A DNA stretch of 64,000 bases, taken from Lobosporangium transversale (Eukaryota). Every line of letters starts with the position of its first letter. Position 1 is the stretch's first letter. A program made the position numbers and the translations under genes. The notes beneath the pieces are model-generated. The model searched no databases. It was not told the DNA's origin and worked only from the letters and a program-made list of their open reading frames with translations. Below, piece by piece: positions 40,378 through 62,563 of the stretch. The stretch lies in assembly GCF_002105155.1 (NCBI RefSeq), contig NW_019028979.1:1364001-1428000 (forward strand), written 5' to 3'.

Positions 40378-41489
40378 TTATGCAGAAGCACGACTAGTGA
40401 GAAGACTATGGGCCTCCGCAAGCTTGGCCTCCAACTGGGCAATGCGGGCACTCTGGTCAGCCTCCTTGGAGAGATGACCATTTTTCTCAGTTTCAAGAAT
40501 AGCAACCTTCATAGTGAGACGATTGTTAGTTGCCTCTAGCTCTGCAACCTTGGCTTCAAGCGTCTCCAATCGAACCAGCTTCTTAAGGCGTGAGCGACGG
40601 GCAGCGTCCGTGTTTTTAGCACGCTTGGCAATGATCTCCTCATTCTCCTCTGGAGGAGATAATGCGCGCTTCTTAGAAGCAGCTGAGGCAGGCACAAACT
40701 TGACAGCACTTACAGGGACAGGAACAGAGGTGATACTCTGCTCAACAGGCTCGGACTTTGGGACTACTGCGGGGGTAGTGTTCAATGGGGCAGCGCTGGA
40801 CGAAGTGTTAAGGACAGTTGCAGCATTGGCCTGAGCAATTACGGCGAGCTCCAAATCACGGCTCCAAGGGATGTTGAGCGCTGCTGCAGCCTGCTGGAGT
40901 GCAGCACTGGTCAACAGCGACGATGGAGCGGTCACTGAGGGGACCTTGACCTGAGCGGGCGCTGTAGATAGAACAGGGGCGACAATAGAAGGAGCAGGCG
41001 TCGAAACGGGGGTCACCAAATCATTGTTGACACCAAGGGCCATGTCAAAGAGAGAAGGGCCCATGACAGTGCCAAATGAATCAAATCCCAAGTCAGGAGA
41101 ATCATCCAGAGCAGAGAAGGGACTCGAAGTCAAAGAGACATCATCACCAGACAACACGCCCAATTGGAAATCATTGGCCAGCCACTCATCAAATCCACAA
41201 CCATTGTTTGTGACAGTAGCGGTAGAAGCAGGAGTGGCAAAAACGTCGTTGGTATCGTTGTTGACTGCAGGAAGTGCAACCTTGCCAACTATGAAAAAGA
41301 GGAAAAAAAAAAAAAAAGAAAAAAAAAAAAAGTGTCAAAATAGGAAGAATTTGAAGTAAGACAATTTTACGAATTATGACATTATACAAGTTGCTTACAT
41401 TGAGCAAGGGCAGACTCCAAAGCGTCTGCAGACTTGGTGAGCTTGGGATCGGTCATATCAAACATTGTGAAGTCGAAAGAGATGGCCAT
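40378..41489 (-). CDS. Gcn4/Cpc1-type bZIP transcription factor; exons 41489-41399 and 41288-40378
   Basis: Basic region AKRAKNTDAARRSRLKK plus leucine zipper (cf. Gcn4 KRARNTEAARRSRARK); GTAAGC/TAG intron keeps frame; leader carries two uORFs. Confidence 0.85.
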
Positions 41490-41593
41490 TTTGGAGGATG
41501 TGATGGTAGGTGTTTAGTCGTATAAAAGAATGAATGGATAGATCTGAAAACGTAAAGACGTTACTCTTGCTCAAAGGTAGAGACGATAAGCTT

Positions 41594-41707
41594 TTAAGAG
41601 TGTAATAAAGAAAGTAAATAGGTTGAGGTAGCTACTACTACGATTGAGTTATTGATGTTGTTGATATTGTTATAGTTTAAGATGGGGAGGATAATTGAGG
41701 AAACCAT
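41594..41707 (-). promoter_or_regulatory. uORF2 (37 codons) in the bZIP leader
   Basis: cccaccATGGTTTCC...CACTCTTAA; ends 104 nt before the main ATG. The only other minus-strand ATG in 41490-42135 is uORF1. Confidence 0.75.
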
Positions 41708-41889
41708 GGTGGGCTAACTTGTTTTAAACCGTAAAGGTTATAAAAGAGATGATTCTAAAAGGGTTAAAAGAGGGGAGCTACAAGGGTCTTGGAGGGGTAT
41801 GCGCAAAGGCTATACTTGAAAAGGTTCTGGTTCTTAAAATTGGTTGTTCTGGTGCGATATGGGGGTGTACAAAGAAGTACGAAGCGTAT

Positions 41890-41907
41890 TTAAGCGGAGA
41901 AGGCCAT
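41890..41907 (-). promoter_or_regulatory. uORF1 (Met-Ala-Phe-Ser-Ala-stop) in the bZIP leader
   Basis: cccaagATGGCCTTCTCCGCTTAA on the minus strand, strong initiation context. Confidence 0.75.
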
Positions 41908-42979
41908 CTTGGGCAAGATTATGAACGGTATGTGTGAAATGTAAAGCAAAAGAAGGGGTTGGATAGTACGTCCAATAAAGAAATATAATAAAAAGAAAAA
42001 AAGCTTAAGTGGTTTGTTTGGAGAATTGGAATAGTATAAATGGGAAGGGGATAAGGTAAGGAAGAAGAAAAGAAAAGAGAAAAGAGAAAAAGAAAAAGAG
42101 AGGGAAGAGAAAAACAAAAATAATAAAAAAGAAAACATGGGACATGTTTCCTGTTCCTTAAGGGCTTTGTCTACGATTATTTTTTTTTAAAGTTTTTTGC
42201 TCGGGTCTATCTTTCCCGCATCTCTCAGGAACATGAATATAATTGCGCAGATATTGTTATTCGTACACAGGTGTTACGCCAACCACAACAAAGCAATGTA
42301 CGTGGGGGTCATTGAAATGCTTTCCAAAAGCAGCGTGCAAGTTTATCATTGTTCTTTTGACAGGCTTAATTTCGTTCTTCTCACGGAAAAAAAGGTCTCG
42401 GCCATTTTGGGTGAGAAAAATGTTAGCCCTTGATCTTGTCATGTGCAAAAATAAAGTAGCAATAAATTAATAATGCAACGTGGAATGCTGCTTTTCAAGG
42501 GTCACTCAAAGGCAATATTATAGATTTTATACATGTATCATGTGGCCAGTCCCTGCATTTCCAGGTTCATATTCATGAACAGTGTAGTGCACATGACCTT
42601 TACAGAAATTACAAATGAATAAATTTATTTGGTATCACGTGCACTGGCCATCGATTATATTGCACTACCACTTACGTATCATGCATTCAGCGTCCCAAAA
42701 AATGCACTGTATACCTAGGCTATTTTTATGAAGTTTTCTAGGTACTCAGGCACCTTTTTTTTCACCTTTAATGCTGATTGGCGCAAATGAGATCACGCCA
42801 TGCAAGAAAAGGTTGATTTGTAATGTCAGGAATGAATGAGGATGAAGCTGACAAAAGGAAAGGTGAGAACAATAAATTGAAGTCCATTTTGCTTCTCATT
42901 CTTTCATTCCTCTTTAACTAATCTATCTCACAAAACCACGTCATTATATCTATCTACCCGCTTTCATATTACTTAAATT

Positions 42980-43642
42980 ATGTCTTCCTCTAACAACACT
43001 GCTTCCTCTTCCACCAGCCAAGTTGCTGGCAAAAAACGCGCTCGTGAGGAATTGGAAAACGACAAGAGCGCAAGTCGCCAGACCTCACCTTCCCTAGAAG
43101 GTCCACCTGCTGCCCTAGCGTTCCACTATGTGCCATGGGAACGTCCCACCAAAAATATACACGAAATCCAGAAGCTCTTTCTTGAGGGTCCATTCTGTAC
43201 TTTCAGGGAGCGGGAAGACAGTGAGCTTTATCAGGATGGCGATGAAGGGAGTCCTCGCAAGATCCTCTTTCTAGAGGGAGTGCTAAAACGCGATTTGTCC
43301 AGCAAACCCGTGACGCGTGGCAAATTTGAGATTTTCGGGCTTCATGAACCATCGCTGATCAAGCAGCTGAAGCGTCGTGACCTCAGGCTGATCAAAAACA
43401 CGGAATTGCAACGGTTAGAAGCGTTAGCTAGGGCCTCGCAACGTGCACCGGCTGCTGTCGTTTCAGTTGCAACAGAGACTGACCGTCCAGAGTCGACGCT
43501 AGAGATGTCAGAACGACAGCTCCGAACGGTTCTCACTGAACTGGAATCAGTTAATGTGGACTCGCCTCGTAACAAGCTTTTGCAAGAAAAAGCAGCACTG
43601 TTGTTAGATGTGTATAGAACCTTTAAACCAGTTGCGGAATAA
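42980..43642 (+). CDS. Hypothetical 220-aa intronless protein carried by element 1 (left copy)
   Basis: Clean ATG-TAA ORF, NLS-like AGKKRARE, probable C-terminal helices; no family recognised. Confidence 0.65.
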   Translation: MSSSNNTASSSTSQVAGKKRAREELENDKSASRQTSPSLEGPPAALAFHYVPWERPTKNIHEIQKLFLEGPFCTFREREDSELYQDGDEGSPRKILFLEGVLKRDLSSKPVTRGKFEIFGLHEPSLIKQLKRRDLRLIKNTELQRLEALARASQRAPAAVVSVATETDRPESTLEMSERQLRTVLTELESVNVDSPRNKLLQEKAALLLDVYRTFKPVAE

Positions 43643-43730
43643 AGTGTTGTTTTCAAAAATATATATTATCATGAGTATAAAAAATTCGTACGGCGGTGCA
43701 CTTTGGAGAGTACATCAAAACCATAGCTTT

Positions 43731-46207
43731 TTATTTGCCCTTCTTCTTTTGGATAGACTTAAAGTACGCGTTTGAGGATCCAGCTTGCCTGATTGCAGTA
43801 TCCATTGTCGTTTTTGCCTTTATAACTCTGTCGTTCAGTGTTGGTCCTTCAGTCTTCAGGACCTCAGCCAGAGTAGCAAAGATAATTCTTCGCTTGAGCA
43901 TATACTGGTTCCTAAGATTAGGATTCCAGCCTTTGCGCCAGTCCTTTTGGAACCTATTCAAACTCCAAATCGATGGCTTTGCCCCCTGGGCCGTAAACCA
44001 TTCATCCCAAAGAGGAAAAAGAGGGGTGACCCTTGACAACATAGAGAAATTTGGGGCTGCAGCTCTGACCTGGTCAATTGGGAGCTGCAAGTAAGTCTCT
44101 GCAATCTTATCCGCTAAACATTCCAACTTCATTGTTTCCATGGCTTCATTTATCCCTCCATCTTCCTCTTGTTCCTGCACCTCGGGGTCTACTTGGTCTA
44201 GTTGCTCATTTTGGCCTGGTTGCTCGTCTTGGCCTGGTCGCTCATCCTGCTCTGGTTGCTGCTCCAAAGCATCCATCCCCCTTTGTTCAAATCCCCGCGG
44301 CTGCTCCTGGAGATGCTGCCTTGGAGGTATATGATGTATAAGGTCATTCAACTGTTGTTCTTGCTCTTTCGCTTGACGCTGCTCTTGTTGCGTCAGAATG
44401 CGATGCTCGTTCTCCATATCACTAGCTAAATGCCCAAAAGACCTGGCGGTTGTCTTCGTAAGGTTCGACATTACAGTTTGAAGCCCTTGTACGATGGTTA
44501 TCATCTCACGATGCATATGACTGCATGTTCTAGACCAGCCAGCATTACTATTCTCCGCTGTAGCTTGGAGTGCGCCCATAAAATCATCACGTACGTAATG
44601 ATCCAAAGATGACACGCTCGATTTGATGGCTTGAAGCTCTTGATGGATGACTGGAGCATTGAAACGGAGACTGTCGTTTGTTGGTGATTGTGTCTTCTGC
44701 ATGGCATCGTGAAGTCGCAAAGAAAACTCTTGGAACAGTTGCGACGAAAACACAGGGTTACTAGTGAAAACGTGGTGCTGGCTGTAGATACACAATGGAT
44801 CGCCATTGCACGCCATCAGAGCAACTGCATCTTGTAAAATAACCTTGCGCAAGTGGGCTAGGATAAGCATGATTCGCATGGCTGGAATGTACTCAGCTGG
44901 ATAAGGTACTGACTCATTGTCAGGACGATTCAGATCTTCGGGACGATCCATCATAACGTTCTCCATCCATCTGGCCCAATCGACATTGTCTGGAAACAGC
45001 TCCTCAATGAATGGAAAGATTTGCTTCTGTAATTCAACAGGCGGTATAACGGTGTTCCGCGGAAGCCAGAAATCCTCATTCTCGTGGAGAAATCCGGCCA
45101 TTTTAAATGGTACAGTCTGCGCTACCGGACTAAGGTAATGCGTTACCAAGCGGCGATGGTTCCAATTACCATGTTGGGCAATATCTTCGATGCTAGCCCC
45201 ATTGGCTTGCGCATGTTGCGCCCCAGCCTTACGGCCACTATGAGTAACCTTGGATGATGTGTAATGCGCTAGCTTCATCACCTCGCTTAGAGATCTGAGT
45301 ATGGCTATGCTATTGGTTAGGAAACAGAGTACAAAAACTTCATGTAATGGCGTATTTGCATTTCTGATAATTTCACTTGCCTGTAGAGAGTCGCAGCATC
45401 CATCGCTTTGTATTTGTCAGAGGCATGTACAAGGTACTGGGATTTCCAGTCATGCATGCGGAAATTTGGAGTAGATTCTTTCGTCTGTTGTGTAAGGTAA
45501 AGGGGTATTTTAATCATGGATGAATATTAATAGACAGCTTATATGCTGAGTTAATCTTCAACAGCAACCCATAGAAGCAGCCAATACGTACCATCCACTG
45601 CTCGAATAGATAAAAAGCGAGGCATCCAACAGGGCAAATCTCTACGTCCTTGTTACGAATAAATACAGAATGGAGCGTATGATCATTGTTCATTTTTCCT
45701 TGAGGGATTGCTATTACAATCCCAAGTGCGAACTGGTGTCCATTTCCAGCAGTCGCAAAGTGGTGGGGAAATAAGTGGCTCACTAAGGCATCTCGTATAC
45801 TTTGTCCCCGAGTGATCATAAAATGATTAAATGCAAAACACAGACGATTACGCGCGCCAACTAGCTTCTGTGTCCTGGAGACAGCACTCAGATGCTTATA
45901 GCTCCTGCTCCACGAGATCTTCATAAATTTCTTGAACATAGATAGAGGATATCCCGCACCAACTGTCAGTTGCAGAACGTCCTGGGACGACGTTCTTTTG
46001 TTCTGGTTCAAAAGTAACGTTCATAATCTGTTTCTAGCTCTGCTGATATAAAAAAAAAAAATAAATAAATAAAGAAAGAAGGCGTGAGACTGAGGCCATA
46101 GAGGGTCGGCGTACGGCTCTAAGCAAATGGGATACATAATGGGTCCTTTGCTCAGAAGCACTCCTCCTCTCTTAGAGGGTGTTGGTATTGCGTTTTATTG
46201 AATCCAT
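43731..46207 (-). CDS. Tyrosine recombinase (NDC10_II/Crypton-type) + GCR1_C, left copy; 5' end apparently disrupted
   Basis: Mirror of 46886-49362. Confidence 0.8.
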
Positions 46208-46885
46208 CTTTTTTTTTTTCTAAAGGGGTTACGGGGACAAGAGACAGGAACGCCGAGAAAGTAAATGAGTGAGTGGGAAGGAGAGCTTACTCGGTTTAGA
46301 AGGGTTTGGAAAGGTGTTGGGTGTAGCAATGAAGAAGGAAGAAAAGGAATGCATGAATGCATGAGACATTTTTTTTTTTTTTTTTTTTTTTCCCAGTATA
46401 GCCTGGGAGGTATTTGCAGAGGTTACAAGCAGGATTACAATTGGTGCGAAAACACAGTCACATATATACTTATTGAATACAAATTTTGTAATTTAAATTG
46501 TTAAGATTTCATTTTGTAATCCGATTACAGCAAACTACCGTTTATACTGAAACGGTAGTTTGCTGTAATCGGATTACAAAATGAAATCTTAACAATTTAA
46601 ATTACAAAATTTGTATTCAATAAGTATATATGTGACTGTGTTTTCGCACCAATTGTAATCCTGCTTGTAACCTCTGCAAATACCTCCCAGGCTATACTGG
46701 GAAAAAAAAAAAAAAAAAAAAAAATGTCTCATGCATTCATGCATTCCTTTTCTTCCTTCTTCATTGCTACACCCAACACCTTTCCAAACCCTTCTAAACC
46801 GAGTAAGCTCTCCTTCCCACTCACTCATTTACTTTCTCGGCGTTCCTGTCTCTTGTCCCCGTAACCCCTTTAGAAAAAAAAAAAG

Positions 46886-49362
46886 ATGGATTCAATAAAA
46901 CGCAATACCAACACCCTCTAAGAGAGGAGGAGTGCTTCTGAGCAAAGGACCCATTATGTATCCCATTTGCTTAGAGCCGTACGCCGACCCTCTATGGCCT
47001 CAGTCTCACGCCTTCTTTCTTTATTTATTTATTTTTTTTTTTTATATCAGCAGAGCTAGAAACAGATTATGAACGTTACTTTTGAACCAGAACAAAAGAA
47101 CGTCGTCCCAGGACGTTCTGCAACTGACAGTTGGTGCGGGATATCCTCTATCTATGTTCAAGAAATTTATGAAGATCTCGTGGAGCAGGAGCTATAAGCA
47201 TCTGAGTGCTGTCTCCAGGACACAGAAGCTAGTTGGCGCGCGTAATCGTCTGTGTTTTGCATTTAATCATTTTATGATCACTCGGGGACAAAGTATACGA
47301 GATGCCTTAGTGAGCCACTTATTTCCCCACCACTTTGCGACTGCTGGAAATGGACACCAGTTCGCACTTGGGATTGTAATAGCAATCCCTCAAGGAAAAA
47401 TGAACAATGATCATACGCTCCATTCTGTATTTATTCGTAACAAGGACGTAGAGATTTGCCCTGTTGGATGCCTCGCTTTTTATCTATTCGAGCAGTGGAT
47501 GGTACGTATTGGCTGCTTCTATGGGTTGCTGTTGAAGATTAACTCAGCATATAAGCTGTCTATTAATATTCATCCATGATTAAAATACCCCTTTACCTTA
47601 CACAACAGACGAAAGAATCTACTCCAAATTTCCGCATGCATGACTGGAAATCCCAGTACCTTGTACATGCCTCTGACAAATACAAAGCGATGGATGCTGC
47701 GACTCTCTACAGGCAAGTGAAATTATCAGAAATGCAAATACGCCATTACATGAAGTTTTTGTACTCTGTTTCCTAACCAATAGCATAGCCATACTCAGAT
47801 CTCTAAGCGAGGTGATGAAGCTAGCGCATTACACATCATCCAAGGTTACTCATAGTGGCCGTAAGGCTGGGGCGCAACATGCGCAAGCCAATGGGGCTAG
47901 CATCGAAGATATTGCCCAACATGGTAATTGGAACCATCGCCGCTTGGTAACGCATTACCTTAGTCCGGTAGCGCAGACTGTACCATTTAAAATGGCCGGA
48001 TTTCTCCACGAGAATGAGGATTTCTGGCTTCCGCGGAACACCGTTATACCGCCTGTTGAATTACAGAAGCAAATCTTTCCATTCATTGAGGAGCTGTTTC
48101 CAGACAATGTCGATTGGGCCAGATGGATGGAGAACGTTATGATGGATCGTCCCGAAGATCTGAATCGTCCTGACAATGAGTCAGTACCTTATCCAGCTGA
48201 GTACATTCCAGCCATGCGAATCATGCTTATCCTAGCCCACTTGCGCAAGGTTATTTTACAAGATGCAGTTGCTCTGATGGCGTGCAATGGCGATCCATTG
48301 TGTATCTACAGCCAGCACCACGTTTTCACTAGTAACCCTGTGTTTTCGTCGCAACTGTTCCAAGAGTTTTCTTTGCGACTTCACGATGCCATGCAGAAGA
48401 CACAATCACCAACAAACGACAGTCTCCGTTTCAATGCTCCAGTCATCCATCAAGAGCTTCAAGCCATCAAATCGAGCGTGTCATCTTTGGATCATTACGT
48501 ACGTGATGATTTTATGGGCGCACTCCAAGCTACAGCGGAGAATAGTAATGCTGGCTGGTCTAGAACATGCAGTCATATGCATCGTGAGATGATAACCATC
48601 GTACAAGGGCTTCAAACTGTAATGTCGAACCTTACGAAGACAACCGCCAGGTCTTTTGGGCATTTAGCTAGTGATATGGAGAACGAGCATCGCATTCTGA
48701 CGCAACAAGAGCAGCGTCAAGCGAAAGAGCAAGAACAACAGTTGAATGACCTTATACATCATATACCTCCAAGGCAGCATCTCCAGGAGCAGCCGCGGGG
48801 ATTTGAACAAAGGGGGATGGATGCTTTGGAGCAGCAACCAGAGCAGGATGAGCGACCAGGCCAAGACGAGCAACCAGGCCAAAATGAGCAACTAGACCAA
48901 GTAGACCCCGAGGTGCAGGAACAAGAGGAAGATGGAGGGATAAATGAAGCCATGGAAACAATGAAGTTGGAATGTTTAGCGGATAAGATTGCAGAGACTT
49001 ACTTGCAGCTCCCAATTGACCAGGTCAGAGCTGCAGCCCCAAATTTCTCTATGTTGTCAAGGGTCACCCCTCTTTTTCCTCTTTGGGATGAATGGTTTAC
49101 GGCCCAGGGGGCAAAGCCATCGATTTGGAGTTTGAATAGGTTCCAAAAGGACTGGCGCAAAGGCTGGAATCCTAATCTTAGGAACCAGTATATGCTCAAG
49201 CGAAGAATTATCTTTGCTACTCTGGCTGAGGTCCTGAAGACTGAAGGACCAACACTGAACGACAGAGTTATAAAGGCAAAAACGACAATGGATACTGCAA
49301 TCAGGCAAGCTGGATCCTCAAACGCGTACTTTAAGTCTATCCAAAAGAAGAAGGGCAAATAA
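46886..49362 (+). CDS. Tyrosine recombinase (NDC10_II/Crypton-type) + GCR1_C, right copy; catalytic exons about 47073-47501, 47609-47712, 47799-49362; 5' end has an in-frame TAA and a frameshift
   Basis: ITRGQSIR (Arg), GKMN (Lys), RNKDVEICPVGCLAFYL, THSGRK (HxxR), HGNW, THYL (Tyr); C-terminal LWDEWFTAQGAKPSIWSL...QYMLKRRII is GCR1_C-like. Confidence 0.8.
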
Positions 49363-49450
49363 AAAGCTATGGTTTTGATGTACTCTCCAAAGTGCACCGC
49401 CGTACGAATTTTTTATACTCATGATAATATATATTTTTGAAAACAACACT

Positions 49451-50113
49451 TTATTCCGCAACTGGTTTAAAGGTTCTATACACATCTAACAACAGTGCTG
49501 CTTTTTCTTGCAAAAGCTTGTTACGAGGCGAGTCCACATTAACTGATTCCAGTTCAGTGAGAACCGTTCGGAGCTGTCGTTCTGACATCTCTAGCGTCGA
49601 CTCTGGACGGTCAGTCTCTGTTGCAACTGAAACGACAGCAGCCGGTGCACGTTGCGAGGCCCTAGCTAACGCTTCTAACCGTTGCAATTCCGTGTTTTTG
49701 ATCAGCCTGAGGTCACGACGCTTCAGCTGCTTGATCAGCGATGGTTCATGAAGCCCGAAAATCTCAAATTTGCCACGCGTCACGGGTTTGCTGGACAAAT
49801 CGCGTTTTAGCACTCCCTCTAGAAAGAGGATCTTGCGAGGACTCCCTTCATCGCCATCCTGATAAAGCTCACTGTCTTCCCGCTCCCTGAAAGTACAGAA
49901 TGGACCCTCAAGAAAGAGCTTCTGGATTTCGTGTATATTTTTGGTGGGACGTTCCCATGGCACATAGTGGAACGCTAGGGCAGCAGGTGGACCTTCTAGG
50001 GAAGGTGAGGTCTGGCGACTTGCGCTCTTGTCGTTTTCCAATTCCTCACGAGCGCGTTTTTTGCCAGCAACTTGGCTGGTGGAAGAGGAAGCAGTGTTGT
50101 TAGAGGAAGACAT
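49451..50113 (-). CDS. Hypothetical 220-aa protein carried by element 1 (right copy)
   Basis: Identical translation to 42980-43642. Confidence 0.65.
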   Translation of the reverse strand: MSSSNNTASSSTSQVAGKKRAREELENDKSASRQTSPSLEGPPAALAFHYVPWERPTKNIHEIQKLFLEGPFCTFREREDSELYQDGDEGSPRKILFLEGVLKRDLSSKPVTRGKFEIFGLHEPSLIKQLKRRDLRLIKNTELQRLEALARASQRAPAAVVSVATETDRPESTLEMSERQLRTVLTELESVNVDSPRNKLLQEKAALLLDVYRTFKPVAE

Positions 50114-50503
50114 AATTTAAGTAATATGAAAGCGGGTAGATAGATATAATGACGTGGTTTTGTGAGATAGATTAGTTAAAGAGGAATGAAAGAATGAGAA
50201 GCAAAATGGACTTCAATTTATTGTTCTCACCTTTCCTTTTGTCAGCTTCATCCTCATTCATTCCTGACATTACAAATCAACCTTTTCTTGCATGGCGTGA
50301 TCTCATTTGCGCCAATCAGCATTAAAGGTGAAAAAAAAGGTGCCTGAGTACCTAGAAAACTTCATAAAAATAGCCTAGGTATACAGTGCATTTTTTGGGA
50401 CGCTGAATGCATGATACGTAAGTGGTAGTGCAATATAATCGATGGCCAGTGCACGTGATACCAAATAAATTTATTCATTTGTAATTTCTGTAAAGGTCAT
50501 GTG

Positions 50504-53500
50504 CAGTATATAGAGCGAATCTGAATCAATATTAAGACAGGGAGTGCTCTGTGTCTTGAAATGTGACTGTCACTGCTCTGTGTCTTGTTTGTGTAACCAT
50601 TTTGGCGTATATTTAAGTCAAAGTGCGTATAATGTAGTCAATATAAACCACAGAATGCGTAAAATGTAGTGAAAACGGCGTATATTCCTTCCTTTTCAAT
50701 CATTAGTATTTCAGATACCTTGCTATTCTGGTATTATTTAACTTTTTACAGACCACATCTGGTCAAGTTAATCTAAACTAACATTCCCTTTATCCATACT
50801 CCATACTATTCGCCATTTATTTCCCTCAACGGAAATGAGGAGAAAGTGCGTTTAGACGCTACCAAACGCCAAACGGATCGCAAACGCGCGACTCACAAAC
50901 ATACCAATTTCTTTTTATTTTATTTTTTTGGCAAAGCAATTAATGCATTTAGTATTTTATTACTATATCTATTATTATATATGTTACTATCGTACATGCT
51001 TCTATATATGCTATTGTTACCTACCTGGGAAGTGTATTGTCATTTATTGGTCATCTTCAGGATCCTCTTGCTCCCTAGCTTTCATGGATATCAACAGTGA
51101 GTTAATAGTCTTTCCCTCATTTGCCTGTGACCACTCAGCAACAATGTCTTCAGGATTGCGACCTTCCCTTCGTGCTGCTTCGTTGATCAGCCTAATTAAC
51201 TCATATCGTCGATTGTAGGCCCTTTGGTCTGATGTATTCACTGGCCAACTCGGGTTCAATCTTTTAAATGCTGCAAGGGGCCCATGAAACTCATCCCAAG
51301 CATCTGCCACTGTGAGCTTTCCGCGGTCTGCTTTCCATTTGAAAGTGGCGCTTGATGAGCTGGGGCCTGGGGACGAGTGATGCGATGGCTCTGGCGCTCG
51401 TTGGAAGCAATGTAGAGGAGCTTGAACCAGCGATGAGTGCTGTTGAGGTACCTGTGGGGGACGCGTCGCAAACGGCTGCTGTTGAGGGACTCTGCGCAGA
51501 GCAGGATAGCTTGGCATAGTATGGGGATATGGCCCAAGAAGACCGGCTGAATTCAAGGGATGCGCTGGAGCTTGGCGAGCTGACGGATCCTGCAATAAAT
51601 GTATCACTATCTCCATTTGCTGCTTTAGCGTCGCGAGCTCTGAGCTCATGGCAGACAACTGCGCCCTTTGTTGTGCTTCTTGCTGTGCCATTTGTGCTCC
51701 TTGCCGAGCAATAGCTGCTTCAAGAGATGCATTCTGGTGACTAAGGCTGTTTAGCGCGTTGGAGACCACATGTTTGTCAACTGGGACTAATGGATTGACA
51801 ACATTGGCGCTCTGCTGATGCACTTCGATCGCACGAAGGAGCTCTCTCTGAAAGTCAAGGAACAGCTGACTCTCAAAGATTTCTGGAAGTGATTCTAAAA
51901 GCTTATTGCTCAGAGTCCTTCCTTTGCTGTCAGGCTTCAGGTACAGCACGGCGTCTTGAAGGATAACTCTCCTCATTTGTACCAGCAATAGTAGGAAAGC
52001 TCTTCGATCAATCATTGCGCTGTTCATGAGCTTATTGGCCGTTGCGGCGGAGCTTCCCGTAGTTTCTTCATCTTGATCCCTAGCCGCTGTCGAATGGCGC
52101 ATACGCTCCTGCCAGCCTCCCCAGTGCAGGTCGTCCTCCGTGATGAGATCCGGGTTTACATCTGTCATAGCATCATTACAATCCTTGACCCATTCCTCAT
52201 TCTCTCTAGCGCTGCTGTTAAAGTTCCCTTCGATCCAAGGGAAAATTTTCCTCTGCAGCTCCAAGTCAGGGATAACGAGATTACGCTCAAGGATATAAGG
52301 TTCCTGTTCCTTGTTGAAATGAGCCATATAAAACGCGCCAGTGGTGGGGTTCTTTGGAGCATAGAAACTCTCCATCTGTCCCATTACCCAACGCCCAAGG
52401 TGACGGATATGCTCCAAGCCTAAGCCCAGACGGTACGCATCTGATGTTCCTGCGTGTCGACCGGCGTGAGTGACCTTGGTCGAATAAACGCCACAGGTTC
52501 GCATCACAGAAGCTGTGGCATCGATTTGAGTCTTTGGTGCAACAGCATTCTTGCGAAGGCCTGCGTTGCGCTTCTCGATCGTACTAGCCGCGACCAAAAG
52601 CTTGATGTTGTACCAATCGTCAGGATCAGCGAAGTTTGGGACATCCTCCTTATCCAGCTATTATAGGAATGGTACGCGACCCAACATTTAACAACGAGCT
52701 AGGAAAGTACATAACCTATATTGCAGTAAGAAGAGACAAGAATGGCACAAATCTCTTACCATAAATCGTTCTAACATGTAGAAGCCAAACGCTCCTACAG
52801 TACACCTGTAAAAAACTTTATGACGAAAGGCGGTTGCATAAAGCTTAACACCCTTTTTATTTGTTTTGCCACGAGATATGCAAAACGTAAGTCCGAGAGC
52901 TGGCTGGGACCCACTTGCCGGATGGGAAGACATGATACTGAACACATCAGATAGGTTAAGATTGCGAATGTCTTCATCTCGCAGCAGCATATGGTGTCGT
53001 GCCAAGATGCAAAGGCGCTCACGCATATATTGAAATCTACCTTCCGCATGGTACACTCGCTTCCCTTTTAGCCGCAGCATTGGCTTCATACCCCACGTAT
53101 GGAGGGCCATCCGAATGAACTGCTTCTCATTATAGGGGTCGCGAATAGAACAGGTATCAGTGCGCGTCGATCCCTGGAATGAGGTGTCGTACACTAGTTT
53201 CCCCTCGTATTCCTCGATAGCCTCCTTCAGCGGGATATCCTTGCGCGGATGAGGTGCAGGGTTTGGCCAATCCACCTTTGATGACGCTTGCTCCTTGTAG
53301 AGATAAATTAATGCCTTCCTGGCACAATCCACTGTTTCTATCGAGATAGGCGCATAGATGAATCTTCGGCCAGTCTCATCAGTTTGCGGATGCGAAAGAA
53401 CTATATTTGGATTAAAATGAAGTGTCAGAATGTCAATTAAGAGTGAGCCACAGCTTTGAACAAGGTTATTTTGGTTACATGATTACACTAGATTTACTTT

Positions 53501-55077
53501 TTGCTCTTTCCGCAATGGAGGAGACCATGAGGGCTTGTGGTTCAGCAGACATGAGGGCCTCTTCTTCAGCTGGTTGCGAGTGATTTTGTTCCTCGTCTTC
53601 GCTTCCTGCATCGTCTTTGTCACCTTGGGAGGCTTCCTCAAACCCCTCAAATGCCGGAGTCTCATAAGGCTGTGAATTACGTTGGCTATAATTTTGCTCC
53701 AGCTCATGGACAACATCCTGAAAAATACTTTCCTCTGTCTCTGCTTTCCAAGCCTTTGGTTTTCTCTTATTTTCGCGAGTCAGCTTGCCCTCTAACACTG
53801 ATCTGGCCGCTTGTGATGAAGCCTTTCCAACGACGCCACTGAATCCCGCGTTTGAATCAATATATTTCTTTACTGTGCGCTTGAAAACAACCTCCTCGAA
53901 AAACTTTAACATTTTTCTTGCGTCAACGCTGCAGTCCCCTTTTTCTCTTGTGCTGCAGAACACCTATCATTTATATTGTATTTGCATATTTTGTATTACG
54001 AAGCATGAAAAAAAAAATTTGACTGTCCTAAAAAATAAAATAAACAAATAAACAAAATAATAAACTTACCTGCCAAGCTTTCAAGTATGTCTTGTACTGC
54101 AGCAATGTCTTTGAGGGATTCTTGTTGGCGAGGAGAGATTCGAGAACATGGTTAGCACAGGTTTTTCTCTGCTCTGCTGTTTCTTCAGACGAAAAAGGCG
54201 ACTGAAGGTGGCTGGAAGAGTTATCAGTTGTTGCACCGATAATCGTGTCTTGGGAGTAGATCCGCTTGCGAGGGGTGTGTTCCTCGGAGACGTTGTGGAC
54301 GCCTACAGAACAGGCCCTTCTTTTGCCCTCGCGGATCTCTCTCCTTTTTTCTTTTTCATCTCTGGCTTCCTTAGCCTTTCGTGCATAGCCACTTCTTCCT
54401 TCTTTCCCTTGCTTCACGCTAAATTCGAAGAAGGTCCCGCTTGGACCTGAGTTTATTGATGAAGAGGCAGCGTTGCCAGAAGAAGAAGAAGCGATAGTGC
54501 GGGGCATCTTGATAGGTTACTTTATATTTTTTGTTGAGGGAATTGGGTAGATATTTGTGAGTACGATCAAGTGTTGCAAGTAGTGGTTATCGTAATAAAT
54601 AGCGATGATGTATAATGTATAAAAGAAAAGAATAAAAAAGAAAAATGTAAGCGAACATGGTTTTATACTTTTAGCTCATATTGTCAAGTCCAGTTCAAGA
54701 ATATACTCTCCTCATATTTCAATTGTTCAATCGCTATCTTAGTGAGCTTGATCAATTGTTAGCTTCCCTCAAGCGCGTTATTTTCCTTTGAGTACGGAAT
54801 GAGTACAGATGAGGAATGAGTGGAATGAGTGGAATGGAATGCGGGAATGAAGAATTGTATGAAGCAAGGTGTTGATCAGATCAGACCGCTTTGTGAGCGC
54901 GCTACGCGCGTGTAACTAAAGATACTTTTAGTTTCTACTTTTCAGTTAGATGTAGTGAAAAGACATGTGCCTGAATTCTAACCTCTGTGTCTCTGTGTCT
55001 GTACGTGAAACCTATGAAACATTTTGCCTATTAATGGGCATACACTGGAATTTGACTTAATAAACTATTACAGTATA
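50504..55077 (-). mobile_element. Crypton-like element 2, apparently intact, flanked by CAGTATA direct repeats
   Basis: CAGTATA at 50504-50510 and 55071-55077; shared subterminal motifs at both ends (CTCTGTGTCT, ATGTAGTGAAAA, TTAAGTCAAA); encloses one YR gene. Confidence 0.75.
51044..54507 (-). CDS. Intact tyrosine recombinase (NDC10_II/Crypton-type) + GCR1_C, 1052 aa; exons 54507-54070, 53963-53498, 53400-52760, 52657-51044
   Basis: Three GT-AG introns give a continuous 3159-nt frame. Motifs LLRDEDIR, GKTNK, RHKVFYRCTVGAFGFY, THAGRH, LGRW, ESFY; GCR1_C-like TVADAWDEF...AYNRRYELI. Confidence 0.88.
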
Positions 55078-55328
55078 AATATATATATATATCTATACTT
55101 TAATTTTTTATTTTCGCTTGTGGATCTCTGCATACAATTGTTCTTCTTTTAATCTTATTTCAATAGCCGAAGCAATAGTTTGGGATATCGTCGCCATTTG
55201 GTCACGAACATAGTGTAAAAATATATTGATTGAACTGATGGCCAGAAGCGAGGACAATATAGATATATATATATCGAGGAAGTGGGGCTTCTTGATATTT
55301 TATTATCACTATAGAGACGATATGATAC

Positions 55329-58410: not shown

Positions 58411-60558
58411 CTATCTCCATGCCTTTTCTTGTAACGGTGGCATGATAATCTCAATTTCGGGCCGGATTTTGTTAATAACTCTCTGAATCTCTTTCAAAGC
58501 ATAGTGTTTCTGCGCATGTCTATTTTCATTCGTTTGAAACCGCATATCAATCGTTTCCATCTCTGGCCATAAACACTCTTCCCGGTGAGCACGTCGTCCT
58601 TGGAAATAATTGATCAAATCTTGCACTTGACCAAGATGGGTCATGTCAACGCCATCAATTATTTCTCTTCCATGCTCGGACAGCTCTTTCTCATTTTTCT
58701 TCTCGTATGTCCGTTGTCCATGTTTTTGATCAGTCGCAATGTCAGGAAGCTTTATCTCCTTATTCTTGTTAAAAATACTGCCGTCGAACCTTGAACGAAC
58801 TAAAGGAAATGATACTCCAAGGCTCTGCTCTGATAGACTGACACTATCATCTTTGCAGTATAAATCATTTATAGTCCGAACAGCCTTCCAAAGTCGCAGC
58901 AGCCCTTTAACCGCACTAAATTGCCTCTTATGCACTTTTTCCCATTGCTGCTTCATCTGCTCCTGTGTATCATAATAATACTGCCGTTTCATCCAGTCAA
59001 TGCTATTCTCTTTCAAGGGCAAAGGATATCCTCTCAAGTACAGTTGCAGGGTCCTCAGACGCTTCAAACGTGACAATAAACACAAACTGACAGGCCCACG
59101 GATAAATACATTGGTCCTATTAATAGCCAGCTTTTCAAGATCAGGACACACCCGACTGATATATCCGAGAACCACACGCAATTGTTCCGCGAAATCCGTC
59201 ATGCCTACTCGATGCTGTTCATCAATCCGGATGTGCAGTGTCTTTAACTTTCGACAGGCCCAGACCCGCTGATTTAAGGGTACCAAGGGTGAGAGGAAGG
59301 ACTGTGAAACACATGGCTGACCAAAAAGCGCTTTGGTCACGTAGAGAAGGTCCAGAGGGAGATTTACCTCTAAGGCTTTGAAATGCTCCAATAATGGGCT
59401 TTCACACAAGAGTTGATGGACCCAGACCCCAATGCGTCGTTCGTCCGCCGCGGTGCTTCCTCTGCAAGGGCCTATAATTTCAACTGTCGTCAGTCGATTT
59501 ACCATTCGATGCGCATCCAAGAGGACGCATGCTGATGACAAGGGATGCCTGACCATACTGGCGGTAGAAACCCCCCAATGCTCCACCAACGGGAACTGCG
59601 CAATAGGCGCAGCCTCTTCATGAATGCTCGAGGGCTCGCACACAGAAACATGAAGGCTATCCAACTTTGGACAATAGGACGACAGGCGGCCAAAAAACGC
59701 TGTTCTCCTTTCCTTTGTGAGGAGAAAATTCTTCATAGGGCCGTCATTGGATCCCCTCTCCGAGACTGGCTGAGCATTGACAATTCGGAGCTCTGTCAAC
59801 TCGGGGCAAGATCGAAGGAATGACTCTAGGGCAGTCTCTGTCAAGCCTAGCTTTTCAAACGTAGCAGATCGCAATGGCCAAGGCCGCTTTTGCTTGATGT
59901 GAGCGCGAACATCGGCCAAATGGTCAGTAGAATCGTCTTGCTTAATATCGAGATCCTGCTCTTCCTCTAGCTTAGCTATGCTGTCTACTCTCCAAGGCGC
60001 ATAACTTGCTGCGACAGTTGCAACAGATAGTTCTTCAAGATTCGGGCATAGGCGCCTAGTCTCAGCCATAGAAATTTTCGCAGAATAAGGAACACTGTCC
60101 AAATGTAAGCAAGTCAGGCCAGGACCAAGGATACGCAGAAGTGGGAGCAATTGAGACCAAACATCGGTATTAAGGTCAGCACTGAAAAAAAACTGTCGGA
60201 TCTTGAGACCAAAGGAGTAAAATGAAGTAGCAGAGGAAGAGGCTAAAGACGCAAGGGCATTCCGGAGAATAGACCAGCTCGCTTCTTCTTGGCCAAGAGG
60301 CAGTCGTGCTGTGTAGAATTTAGGATAACTTCCTCGTTGGCAAGCCAGAGTATAGGCTAGTCCAAGCTTCTTTGCCATTACCTGTTCATTTACACCTTCC
60401 TTCAGATGGATGGCTGAAAAGTGGACTGTTCTCTTCAGGAGTACCCGAGCCATTCGATACCATTGATGTGACACCAGTGGGATATTGGTGCGGAGTGAAG
60501 CCTGTCCTACAAAGGATAAGATACGTTCAATGACCTCGGGAGGAAGTGCGGGCAGCAT
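58411..60558 (-). CDS. Intronless F-box/LRR-like protein, 715 aa
   Basis: LPALPPEVIERILSFV...VSHQW; LCPNLEEL, LLCESPLLEH, VWACRKLKTL, LGYISRVCPDL. Confidence 0.8.
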   Translation of the reverse strand: MLPALPPEVIERILSFVGQASLRTNIPLVSHQWYRMARVLLKRTVHFSAIHLKEGVNEQVMAKKLGLAYTLACQRGSYPKFYTARLPLGQEEASWSILRNALASLASSSATSFYSFGLKIRQFFFSADLNTDVWSQLLPLLRILGPGLTCLHLDSVPYSAKISMAETRRLCPNLEELSVATVAASYAPWRVDSIAKLEEEQDLDIKQDDSTDHLADVRAHIKQKRPWPLRSATFEKLGLTETALESFLRSCPELTELRIVNAQPVSERGSNDGPMKNFLLTKERRTAFFGRLSSYCPKLDSLHVSVCEPSSIHEEAAPIAQFPLVEHWGVSTASMVRHPLSSACVLLDAHRMVNRLTTVEIIGPCRGSTAADERRIGVWVHQLLCESPLLEHFKALEVNLPLDLLYVTKALFGQPCVSQSFLSPLVPLNQRVWACRKLKTLHIRIDEQHRVGMTDFAEQLRVVLGYISRVCPDLEKLAINRTNVFIRGPVSLCLLSRLKRLRTLQLYLRGYPLPLKENSIDWMKRQYYYDTQEQMKQQWEKVHKRQFSAVKGLLRLWKAVRTINDLYCKDDSVSLSEQSLGVSFPLVRSRFDGSIFNKNKEIKLPDIATDQKHGQRTYEKKNEKELSEHGREIIDGVDMTHLGQVQDLINYFQGRRAHREECLWPEMETIDMRFQTNENRHAQKHYALKEIQRVINKIRPEIEIIMPPLQEKAWR

Positions 60559-61733
60559 GCTAGCTTTAGTCGGGATATTTATAGTAAGAGAGAGAAAAAG
60601 AGGAAGTCAGGTTATGATCATTGGCAAATGAGTTTTAATGATGACAGATGGCAATGAACCTTGAAATTGCCCAAAAGTCCAGACCATCTATGGCAATGGT
60701 GGCATGCTGCGCCCATGAGGCTTAATTAAATTGGCGTTTTTTAATGTTCATGTTCATGTATGTAGTGTGCCACAGAAATCAACTTCTGGCAGTCGGTTAT
60801 TAATATTTCTGTCGTCTTTACCGATCCGCGGACTACTGCCTAGACACCTAATATCCGTACAAGGTCATTTTTACCAAGTCAGTGAATTTTCTCTGGCAAT
60901 GTGTCGAAATGGAGGCTACCTATACCACTGTATTTGCTGCTTAGCACCAGCATCTACGTTGTTTTTGCATCGATCTTGGTCCTGTTGTGGTGTCTAACCG
61001 CTATATTATAACTATCAATACACGAGTAGCTTAGTGCTAAGTCGAGTCTACTACTATTTAAGGCCTCACCAAAGGCCATGATTAAGGGGTAAATATGTTC
61101 TCATTTATCCACTTCTCGCCTGACGATATCTAGTATTTCCTGCATATGCTCCTTTGAGACGGACATCCCTTTAGTATTGTTTCTTGTACTATTGTGCACC
61201 AATAATCTGGAAAAAGAATGCTATGTCCGACTTGGCCTTGATGTTGGAATAAATCTTTCGTCCTGATACTTCTGATGCTCCGTTCTTTGTATCTTGGAGG
61301 ACTACCATAAATTCCCCCCCATGAAGGTGGGGCAATGAGCCATCATACCATTCTTTCTTGATCTTCTCGCGCGGGGTGTATTACCTTTCCCAGCACGATC
61401 CTTGCTCCAGAGATTTTGCTGGCCTAGAATCATGCCATTTTTGAAACCATTCTCTGATGTGTCTTTTAACACCTTCTGGTTCAAGGATGTTAAAGGTATC
61501 GCCACCGCCCTATACTTAAATTATGACCAGTATGACTCCTCCATGTCTCCTACCCAGGAGTTTATCTATCATCTGTCCTGTCGCCATGAGCAGCTGTCCA
61601 CATCTCTCTTCAATCCATTGCCATCTTCAATGCTTTTCTAAACGCCTCCCTGCCTGCATCTCGGGCACCGCCTGCACCCATCTCTCGTAGATGCCCTTAC
61701 TTCACATCTCCTATACTTCTTCCCTCCTTCTTC

Positions 61734-62139
61734 TTTTTTTTTTTTTTTGATAACAAGGACCCACGAGGTCATGTAGGATTTATTTAGATGTTAGCTCTAT
61801 AAATGGGTTGCCCCATTACTGGGGTCGCAAATAAAGCGGTATCCAATAATCGGCCGAAGCCGCATCGTCATACTGCCACAGTACTACATCCTGTTCATAA
61901 ACCACGTCAGCATTGAGTAGACTTCCTTGGTCCCAGAGGACCTGTGGCACGGCTCTACTCCCTACTTGACCTGTTGTGCGCGAAGGTCATCCTTTAGCCG
62001 CTGTCCTCAATCATCAAAAATTTACAGCTTTCCAGGCGCTCCATAATCGCCAATTCCACCTGCTGCCGGTAGCTTGCCGCCACTCGCCGGTCTGCCTCAG
62101 TCCTGATCGCCTTCACATCTGCTGTTCGTCGTTGTCCCT

Positions 62140-62170
<31 letters not shown>

Positions 62171-62563
62171 GATAACAAGGACCCACGAGGTCATGTAGGA
62201 TTTATTTTGATGTTAGCTCTATAAATGGGTTGCCCCATTACTGGGGTCGCAAATAAAGCGGTATCCAATAATCGGCCGAAGCCGCATCGTTATACTGCCA
62301 CAGTACTACATCCTGTTCATAAACCACGTCAGCATTGAGTAGACTTCCTTGGTCCCAGAGGACCTGTGGCACGGCTCTACTCCCTACTTGGCCTGTTGTG
62401 CGCGAAGGTCATCCTTTAGCCGCTGTCCTCAATCATCAAAAATTTACAGCTTTCCAGGCGCTCCATAATCGCCAATTCCACCTGCTGCCGGTAGCTTGCC
62501 ACCACTCGCCGGTCTGCCCCAGTCCTGATCGCCTTCACATCTGCTGTTCGTCGTTGTCCCTGG
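61734..62563 (-). mobile_element. Two tandem 393-bp poly(A)-tailed retroposed copies (61749-62141 and 62171-62563)
   Basis: Each copy is preceded on + by a poly(T) tract (61734-61748, 62142-62170); about 5 substitutions between copies; minus-strand AATAAA about 30 nt before each poly(A). Confidence 0.75.

What the first reader, a model, noticed from the sequence alone, without database searches (positions are those of the whole stretch)
42588..50509. 7.9 kb palindrome is a head-to-head dimer of a tyrosine-recombinase element joined through a 6-nt asymmetric core
Seen: two apparently identical 3956 bp arms, each a self-contained unit (YR-GCR1_C gene + 220-aa ORF), separated only by ATACTG, with unique DNA on both outer sides. 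Established: tyrosine recombinases make 6-8 nt staggered cuts via 3'-phosphotyrosine; if the 5'-OH overhang attacks the opposite strand of the same half-site, a hairpin forms whose loop is the core (protelomerase chemistry). Inference: replication through such a hairpin would give exactly arm-core-inverted arm, so this may be a fixed hairpin-derived or end-to-end recombined Crypton dimer. I know of no such intermediate described for Cryptons. Multi-kb near-spacerless palindromes are normally unstable, implying a recent event.
Basis: partly seen in the sequence, partly recalled or inferred. Interest (0 to 1): 0.92.

Follow-up and report, generated by a model that had tools for sequence, protein, structure and literature searches.

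The report
Crypton transposon folded into a palindrome
In this fungal sequence one broken copy of a known jumping gene (a Crypton) sits as an exact 7.9-kb mirror-image pair whose joints fall on the element's own six-letter end motif, which likely records a cut-and-rejoin error of the family's enzyme, although short-read data neither confirm nor exclude an assembly error.

Summary
The palindrome is exact: arms 42588-46543 and 46550-50505, 0 differences in 3956 bp, spacer ATACTG. Each arm is a CryptonF transposon of a roughly 7-8-copy family in a Mortierellaceae fungus. The spacer is the reverse complement of CAGTAT, the published terminal repeat of Rhizopus CryptonF-1_RO, and marks the 5' end of other copies. 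The axis is an exact fold-back join at the core; the outer right joint lies 4 nt inside the normal 3' end. Best reading (0.6): an in-place inverted duplication started by the Crypton recombinase at both element ends. Sequence cannot tell a hairpin from a wrong-way join between sister copies. Contigs of four DNA runs bridge neither new joint, but also not the monomer joint, so an assembly error stays open (0.2). New variant of a known kind; interest 0.5.

The parts
42580..42585 (-). 3' terminal core of the left Crypton copy (CAGTGT on +, ACACTG in gene direction); normal family end
   Evidence: Shared contig starts at 42580 in X1, X3, X4 and other flanks branch there; all four runs continue CTACACTG at the mirror position
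42586..46543 (-). Left Crypton copy, body; internally deleted, non-autonomous allele
42588..46543 (.). Left arm of the perfect palindrome (3956 bp)
42980..43642 (+). 220-aa ORF of no known family, left copy
   Evidence: No Pfam hit; 4 homologues among 931 candidates, all named Lobosporangium transversale
43731..46024 (-). Recombinase (NDC10_II + GCR1_C) gene, left copy; two introns; N-terminal region deleted
   Evidence: (introns 45295-45380 and 45485-45591 skipped in run X5)
46544..46549 (+). Axis ATACTG: the 5' terminal core of the right copy; reverse complement of CAGTAT
   Evidence: 4 distinct other flanks end in N-TACTG-AAACGG; CryptonF-1_RO repeat CAGTAT
46550..50505 (.). Right arm: inverted copy, normal 5' end, 3' end short by 4 nt
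47069..49362 (+). Recombinase gene, right copy: true start 47069, deletion joint 47091/47092, stop after 42 codons in that frame; catalytic and GCR1_C parts open downstream; introns 47502-47608 and 47713-47798
   Evidence: 60-nt junction contig 47062-47121
49451..50113 (-). 220-aa ORF, right copy
50504..50509 (+). CAGTAT: inferred original 5' core of the first element, shared with the 3' end of the second Crypton; outer right joint of the palindrome (CA overlaps the arm)
50510..55070 (-). Second Crypton family ('CryB'), 12-16 copies by depth; predicted 1055-aa recombinase gene 54507-51044 with three introns
   Evidence: right end inferred, not tested by depth
55071..55076 (+). CAGTAT, likely 5' terminal core of CryB (direct repeat of 50504-50509)
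   Evidence: Only CAGTAT in 54508-55300, but 22.5% of shuffles hold one; a 10-bp inverted match 50613-50622 / 55051-55060 lies just inside

Best explanation
The 7.9-kb palindrome is one internally deleted CryptonF copy doubled in place in inverted orientation, likely by a strand-joining error of the family's tyrosine recombinase acting from full-length copies elsewhere. Shown: the arms, the cores, the deletion, the other copies' ends, the neighbour. Inferred starting locus: left flank - CAGTGT - element - CAGTAT - second Crypton - CAGTAT - right flank. Inferred step 1: both strands were cut at the CAGTAT core at the element's 5' end, and the lower-strand 5'-OH end ATACTG was joined to the upper-strand 3'-phosphotyrosine of the same element end (a hairpin, or the sequence-identical wrong-way join to the sister chromatid). 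Inferred step 2: the lower strand was cut at the element's 3' end and joined to the free upper-strand CAGTAT, losing 4 nt (CACT, between two CA). Inferred step 3: replication of the strand that now reads element - ATACTG - inverted element - CAGTAT fixed the palindrome. It is a by-product of transposition, not a functional unit.
For: Both new joints sit at element ends: axis 0 nt off, outer joint 4 nt off under the published 6-bp core; a cut shifted 2 nt puts the 4-nt loss at the axis instead; an inner cut at the 3' end gives the window exactly. The axis 6-mer is the family core: TACTG precedes AAACGG in 4 of 4 other flanks seen, and CAGTAT is listed for CryptonF-1_RO (PMC3212892 supplement 1). 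The same 6-mer stands reverse-complemented at the outer joint. The axis carries ATACTG, the local core, not ACACTG, the invariant 3' core. Both arms share the 2 letters (46927, 49314) at which the window differs from the contigs of 4 of 4 runs, so they come from one template. Full-length N-termini exist as P0029 and P0030; spliced transcripts of the family appear in X5, a run guessed to be RNA. Cre half-sites can form hairpins or sequence-identical pseudo-full sites (PMC2747268, passages); active Cryptons cause inversions and translocations at their cores (PMC9977147, passages).
Against: No contig in X1, X2, X3 or X4 bridges the axis or the outer joint; all four continue with the normal 3' end at 50505, and the CryB end contig carries 2 letters other than the window's before 50504 (listed for X1, X3, X4). 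The window's letters at 46927 and 49314 are in no contig of the four runs, even in X2, which keeps some low-depth variants; they could be consensus errors copied to both arms. No register consistent with the normal ends explains both joints without a 4-nt loss. Tyrosine recombinases normally avoid cutting both strands of one site (own knowledge). A 7.9-kb palindrome with a 6-nt spacer should be unstable (own knowledge).
Confidence: 0.6

Rival explanations
1. Assembly or library artefact: the true locus is a single copy next to CryB, and the inverted copy was put in by the assembler or by chimeric long reads.
For: No bridging contig at either new joint in 4 of 4 DNA runs; two window letters, the same in both arms, are absent from all contigs. 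Mis-joins tend to fall at repeat borders, and both joints are repeat borders (own knowledge).
Against: The monomer joint is not bridged either. Such links are often lost: the 3' end has 7-8 times single-copy depth but only 3-4 flanks per run are seen; Logan contigs are simplified graphs (bioRxiv 2024.07.30.605881, passages). A fold-back chimera would mirror the left flank too and would not return to CAGTAT; two separate base-exact false joints would be needed, and the axis holds the element's core rather than foreign letters.
Confidence: 0.2
2. Wrong-way recombination without a hairpin: an excised circle re-entered at the resident copy's 5' core in inverted orientation, or the second unit of a head-to-tail dimer was inverted between mismatched cores, as Tn916-like integrases allow.
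For: It predicts the same product as the best explanation, within the same 4 nt (model A). Tn1549 Int exchanges strands with one base pair of homology and slips in cleavage position (PMC5871717, passages). Starships, another fungal recombinase element, form circles that integrate (bioRxiv 2026.09.21.753150, Results part 1).
Against: All copies seen end in ACACTG at the 3' side and TACTG at the 5' side, so the family appears to need ACTG in direct orientation; a circle would likely bring ACACTG, not ATACTG (inference, one letter). No circle or tandem joint is listed (contigs; weak).
Confidence: 0.13
3. Recombinase-independent fold-back or double template switch during replication or break repair that happened to start and stop at the element's ends.
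For: The outer joint has a 2-nt CA microhomology and a 4-nt loss. Fold-back inversions are common in yeast and human genomes (search listing only).
Against: There is no short inverted repeat at the inferred starting site to prime a fold-back, and both switches fall within 4 nt of the ends of a 3.96-kb element.
Confidence: 0.07

Closest known systems
CryptonF DNA transposons, especially CryptonF-1_RO of Rhizopus oryzae (Kojima and Jurka 2011, PMC3212892; passages, supplement 1)
   Same: Recombinase plus GCR1_C protein, 3-5 kb length, 6-bp terminal direct repeat; CAGTAT is the very repeat listed for CryptonF-1_RO; modest copy number.
   Different: This copy is internally deleted, carries a 220-aa second ORF of no known family, and sits as a perfect head-to-head pair joined at one core. 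The passages read describe no such pair. CryptonF-2_PI is listed there with 602-bp terminal inverted repeats, a different structure.
Active CryptonF-1_cRei of Chlamydomonas (Lopez-Cortegano et al. 2023, PMC9977147; passages)
   Same: Invariant donor motif at one end and near-identical target motif; rearrangements with breakpoints at the cores; insertion near genes.
   Different: Reported events are inversions between distant copies, translocations and clean excisions, not a spacerless inverted duplication of the element itself.
Cre/loxP half-site hairpins and inverted sister-chromatid recombination (PMC2747268; PMC5376435; passages)
   Same: 5'-OH attack on a 3'-phosphotyrosine gives hairpins or head-to-head joins; sister-chromatid exchange at inverted sites gives mirror-image products.
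   Different: Those are engineered substrates with matched cores; products are dicentric and acentric chromosomes, not a local duplication bounded by a second site.
Protelomerases and telomere resolvases (TelN, ResT; recalled, no call)
   Same: Hairpin made with a 6-nt stagger by tyrosine-recombinase-type chemistry.
   Different: They act on symmetric sites whose overhangs pair on folding back; ATACTG is asymmetric, and the proteins here match no such Pfam family.

Membership tests
CryptonF | One protein with a tyrosine-recombinase domain and a GCR1_C domain | tested here: met
   NDC10_II E 1.2e-09 and 4.2e-08, GCR1_C E 4.9e-05 above its cut-off. The link NDC10_II = Crypton-type recombinase fold rests on PMC3212892; no solved structure matched by sequence.
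CryptonF | Catalytic R-H-R-Y residues | tested here: met
   Motifs TRG, GKMN, THSGR, HGNW, THYL in one spliced frame; H, R, W, Y invariant in 10 of 10 aligned sequences. Assignment of the first R and K is by recalled motif.
CryptonF | 4- or 6-bp terminal direct repeats | tested here: met
   NTACTG at the 5' end, ACACTG at the 3' end; 5 of 6 letters alike at this locus; CAGTAT listed for CryptonF-1_RO.
CryptonF | No terminal inverted repeats or long direct repeats on the monomer | tested here: met
   Best ungapped match between the two ends is 11 of 25, best of 15 offsets.
CryptonF | Dispersed copies with different flanks | tested here: met
   Depth 7-8 times the flank in X1, X3, X4; 2-3 other 3' flanks per run; 4 distinct other 5' flanks across runs.
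CryptonF (autonomous) | Intact full-length recombinase reading frame in this copy | tested here: not met
   About 244 codons missing against P0029; frame from the true start stops after 42 codons.
CryptonF | Circular excision intermediate | tested here: inconclusive
   No back-going joint listed; contigs drop rare forms.
Protelomerase / telomere resolvase | Symmetric target whose overhang pairs on fold-back (recalled) | tested here: not met
   The core ATACTG is not self-complementary.
Protelomerase / telomere resolvase | Protein family match | tested here: not met
   No such Pfam family among hits to E 0.1 for the two recombinase exons.
Protelomerase / telomere resolvase | Covalently closed hairpin ends as product | not testable with these tools
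   Needs raw long reads or biochemistry.
Tn916-like homology-independent integration | Variable coupling sequences at both ends | tested here: not met
   The 3' core is invariant in 4 of 4 runs and TACTG is kept in 4 of 4 other 5' flanks.

The most novel reading that the evidence does not exclude
Crypton recombinases make hairpin-capped ends in living cells, most readily where two different Cryptons share one core and each enzyme cuts its own strand; a three-strand swap then gives one daughter chromatid a mirror-image double copy and the other an empty site. This would be a recurring route to palindromes and to copy-number gain by a eukaryotic tyrosine recombinase, and could bear on why Cryptons multiply although they excise.
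Probability: 0.15. Interest if true: 0.8.

Novelty: new variant of a known kind. Interest (0 to 1): 0.5.

Why it matters
How Cryptons cut, join and gain copies is largely inferred; the one study of active elements calls the mode 'complex' (PMC9977147). A base-exact aberrant product fixes candidate cleavage positions to within 2-4 nt and names a testable side reaction (fold-back at the core). It also suggests that Cryptons can seed long perfect palindromes, a source of chromosome breakage. I found no description of a head-to-head Crypton pair in searches (titles and abstract starts only; subscription journals, Goodwin 2003 and Repbase were not searchable). The value is capped because this is one locus, the arms are defective, and its reality in cells is unconfirmed.

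Tried and rejected
No whole genome was held for this window, so copies could not be counted in the assembly. Metagenome scans for the recombinase (151 pattern matches, 0 confirmed) and for the CryB end (0) found nothing. Earlier scan notes on this genome or this sequence: none. No listed holder is on record as RNA; X5 is only guessed to be RNA. Depth cannot decide one versus two copies in a 7-8-copy family, and depth near the 5' end is lower (4-5 times flank), probably from A/T runs. PDB sequence search: 0 hits. A paper search on missing-adapter palindromes returned 0. My first idea, a Tn916-like coupling swap with cores GTAGTG and ATACTG, was dropped when contigs showed an invariant 3' end at 42580. 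The idea that CryB inserted later into the right arm's end and stops near 55040 (TACACTG at 55041-55047) was considered; the CAGTAT repeat at 55071 and the inverted motif at 55051-55060 favour the longer element, but depth there was not tested. A first, strict splice search for CryB failed; a looser one gave an open 1055-aa frame with one unusual donor.
Full report
1. Observation. The window holds a perfect inverted repeat with arms 42588-46543 and 46550-50505 (3956 bp, 0 mismatches) around ATACTG. It is by far the longest inverted repeat in the window. The recombinase genes point away from the axis, so the 5' ends of two copies meet there.

2. Identity. Each arm encodes NDC10_II and GCR1_C domains, with the recombinase motifs in one spliced frame. 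The two predicted introns, 107 and 86 nt, are skipped by contigs of run X5, which is guessed to be RNA; which copies are transcribed is unknown. All 13 named homologues among 24 hits are from Mortierellaceae genera (family assignment from my own knowledge); the 4 homologues of the 220-aa ORF are from Lobosporangium transversale. This is a CryptonF element as defined in PMC3212892 (passages).

3. The arms are defective. P0029 begins with the same seven residues as the window's frame at 47069 and rejoins it, 45 of 45 residues identical, at residue 252. The window fuses these points at 47091/47092 out of frame, with a stop after 42 codons. A 60-nt contig at about four times flank depth spans that joint in X1, so the deletion allele has several copies. 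P0029 and P0030, on two contigs, show that full N-termini exist; both gene models end at residue 296-297, so an intact full-length gene is inferred, not shown. A shortened protein from the ATG at 47154 is possible but would lack the N-terminal region.

4. True ends. I laid contigs of 5 of the 8 listed runs. Depth over the element against the left flank is 980/117 (X1), 71/10 (X3) and 68/8-10 (X4), roughly 7-8 copies; the tool warns that such depth is no exact copy number. At the 3' end the shared contig starts at 42580 in 3 of 3 DNA runs and 2, 2 and 3 other flanks branch there; in 4 of 4 runs the right arm's position 50505 continues CTACACTG. At the 5' end, 4 distinct other flanks join at TACTG-AAACGG, preceded by A, G, T and T (X2 showed none). 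So normal copies run NTACTG - body - ACACTG. Supplement 1 of PMC3212892 (read whole) lists CAGTAT, the reverse complement of ATACTG, for the Rhizopus element CryptonF-1_RO.

5. The right flank. CAGTAT stands at 50504-50509, and from there depth is 12-16 times the flank. This is a second Crypton, with a predicted open 1055-aa gene and another CAGTAT at 55071 (alone this has a 22.5% chance). The simplest starting locus is therefore two ordinary Cryptons in tandem, in one orientation, sharing the core at 50504 (inference).

6. What changed. Against that starting locus, the window has ATACTG plus the inverted body inserted between CCGTTT and CAGTAT. With cuts at the published 6-bp cores the axis is exact and the outer joint lacks 4 nt (CACT between two CA). 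With cuts shifted by 2 nt the outer joint is exact and the axis lacks 4 nt. With an inner cut at the 3' end both are exact, but that register does not fit the normal ends. Either way both joints are within 4 nt of a pure recombinase product. Both arms share the two letters at which the window departs from the family contigs, so one template gave both.

7. Mechanism. I favour an error within an excision complex that holds both ends: fold-back join at the 5' core, join of the lower strand at the 3' end to the free CAGTAT, then replication (0.6; all steps inferred). PMC2747268 (passages) states that a hairpin and a join between two half-sites give identical strands, and Cre makes mirror-image products between sister chromatids at inverted sites (PMC5376435, passages), so sequence cannot choose. 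A hairpin alone is not enough, as it would mirror the left flank. A speculative reason for this locus: two different recombinases may flank the shared core and each cut one strand.

8. Against. No contig bridges the axis or the outer joint in X1-X4, the CryB end contig has 2 other letters before 50504, and the window's two private letters are in no contig. The monomer joint is not bridged either. All three would be short single-copy links between high-copy contigs; Logan contigs come from simplified graphs (bioRxiv 2024.07.30.605881, passages), removal of such links is my recollection of the assembler's rules, and half of the expected 3' flanks are missing as well. The test is thus inconclusive, and I leave 0.2 for an artefact. 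Tables were cut (213 and 96 pieces, and 3 loose ends, not shown).

9. Known and new. Cryptons, their cores and their rearrangements are known. Searches listed no paper on head-to-head Crypton pairs; I saw listings only, and Goodwin 2003 was not read. An unchecked note of this scan reports a similar pair with a 6-bp centre in another genome, and others report head-to-tail pairs; these are leads, not support. Other papers seen: PMC5871717 (passages); bioRxiv 2026.09.21.753150 (abstract and Results part 1 of 2; its supplements were not seen). Verdict: exact in sequence, probably real, a new variant product of a known transposon kind; interest 0.5.

Noticed in passing
window 50504-55076: Second, more abundant CryptonF family with an apparently intact 1055-aa recombinase gene and CAGTAT at both ends; only about 28-36% identical to relatives of the first family over the catalytic region, yet with the same core as the Rhizopus element.
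   Followed up: partly
window 50585-50626 (tables 5c, 7, 8): In all four runs a low-depth contig leaves the CryB end at 50626, reads 19 other letters that include TACTG, and meets 50604 again; another leaves at 50622. These may be rearranged or miniature CryB derivatives.
   Followed up: no
window 42815-43092 (tables 3, 5, 7): Diverged contigs share only the start of the 220-aa ORF and its promoter region, matching the other Lobosporangium homologues; this ORF appears to belong to several related elements or loci.
   Followed up: no
window 40378-42138: bZIP gene of GCN4/CpcA type (family name recalled; bZIP shown), with an intron at 41289-41398 bridged in X5; the two Cryptons sit about 560 bp from the end of its transcript cover, on its promoter side.
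   Followed up: partly
window 61728-62449: Two 300-nt direct copies, 98% alike, 422 bp apart (family D6).
   Followed up: no
window 1396-39374 and 58411-60606: Many F-box/leucine-rich-repeat-like genes in a cluster (read from translations; only one was scanned against Pfam).
   Followed up: no
5' flanks of other copies: The flanks differ among samples (X1: two, X3: a third, X4: one shared with X1 and a fourth). This may reflect contig loss or insertions private to a sample, that is, current activity.
   Followed up: no
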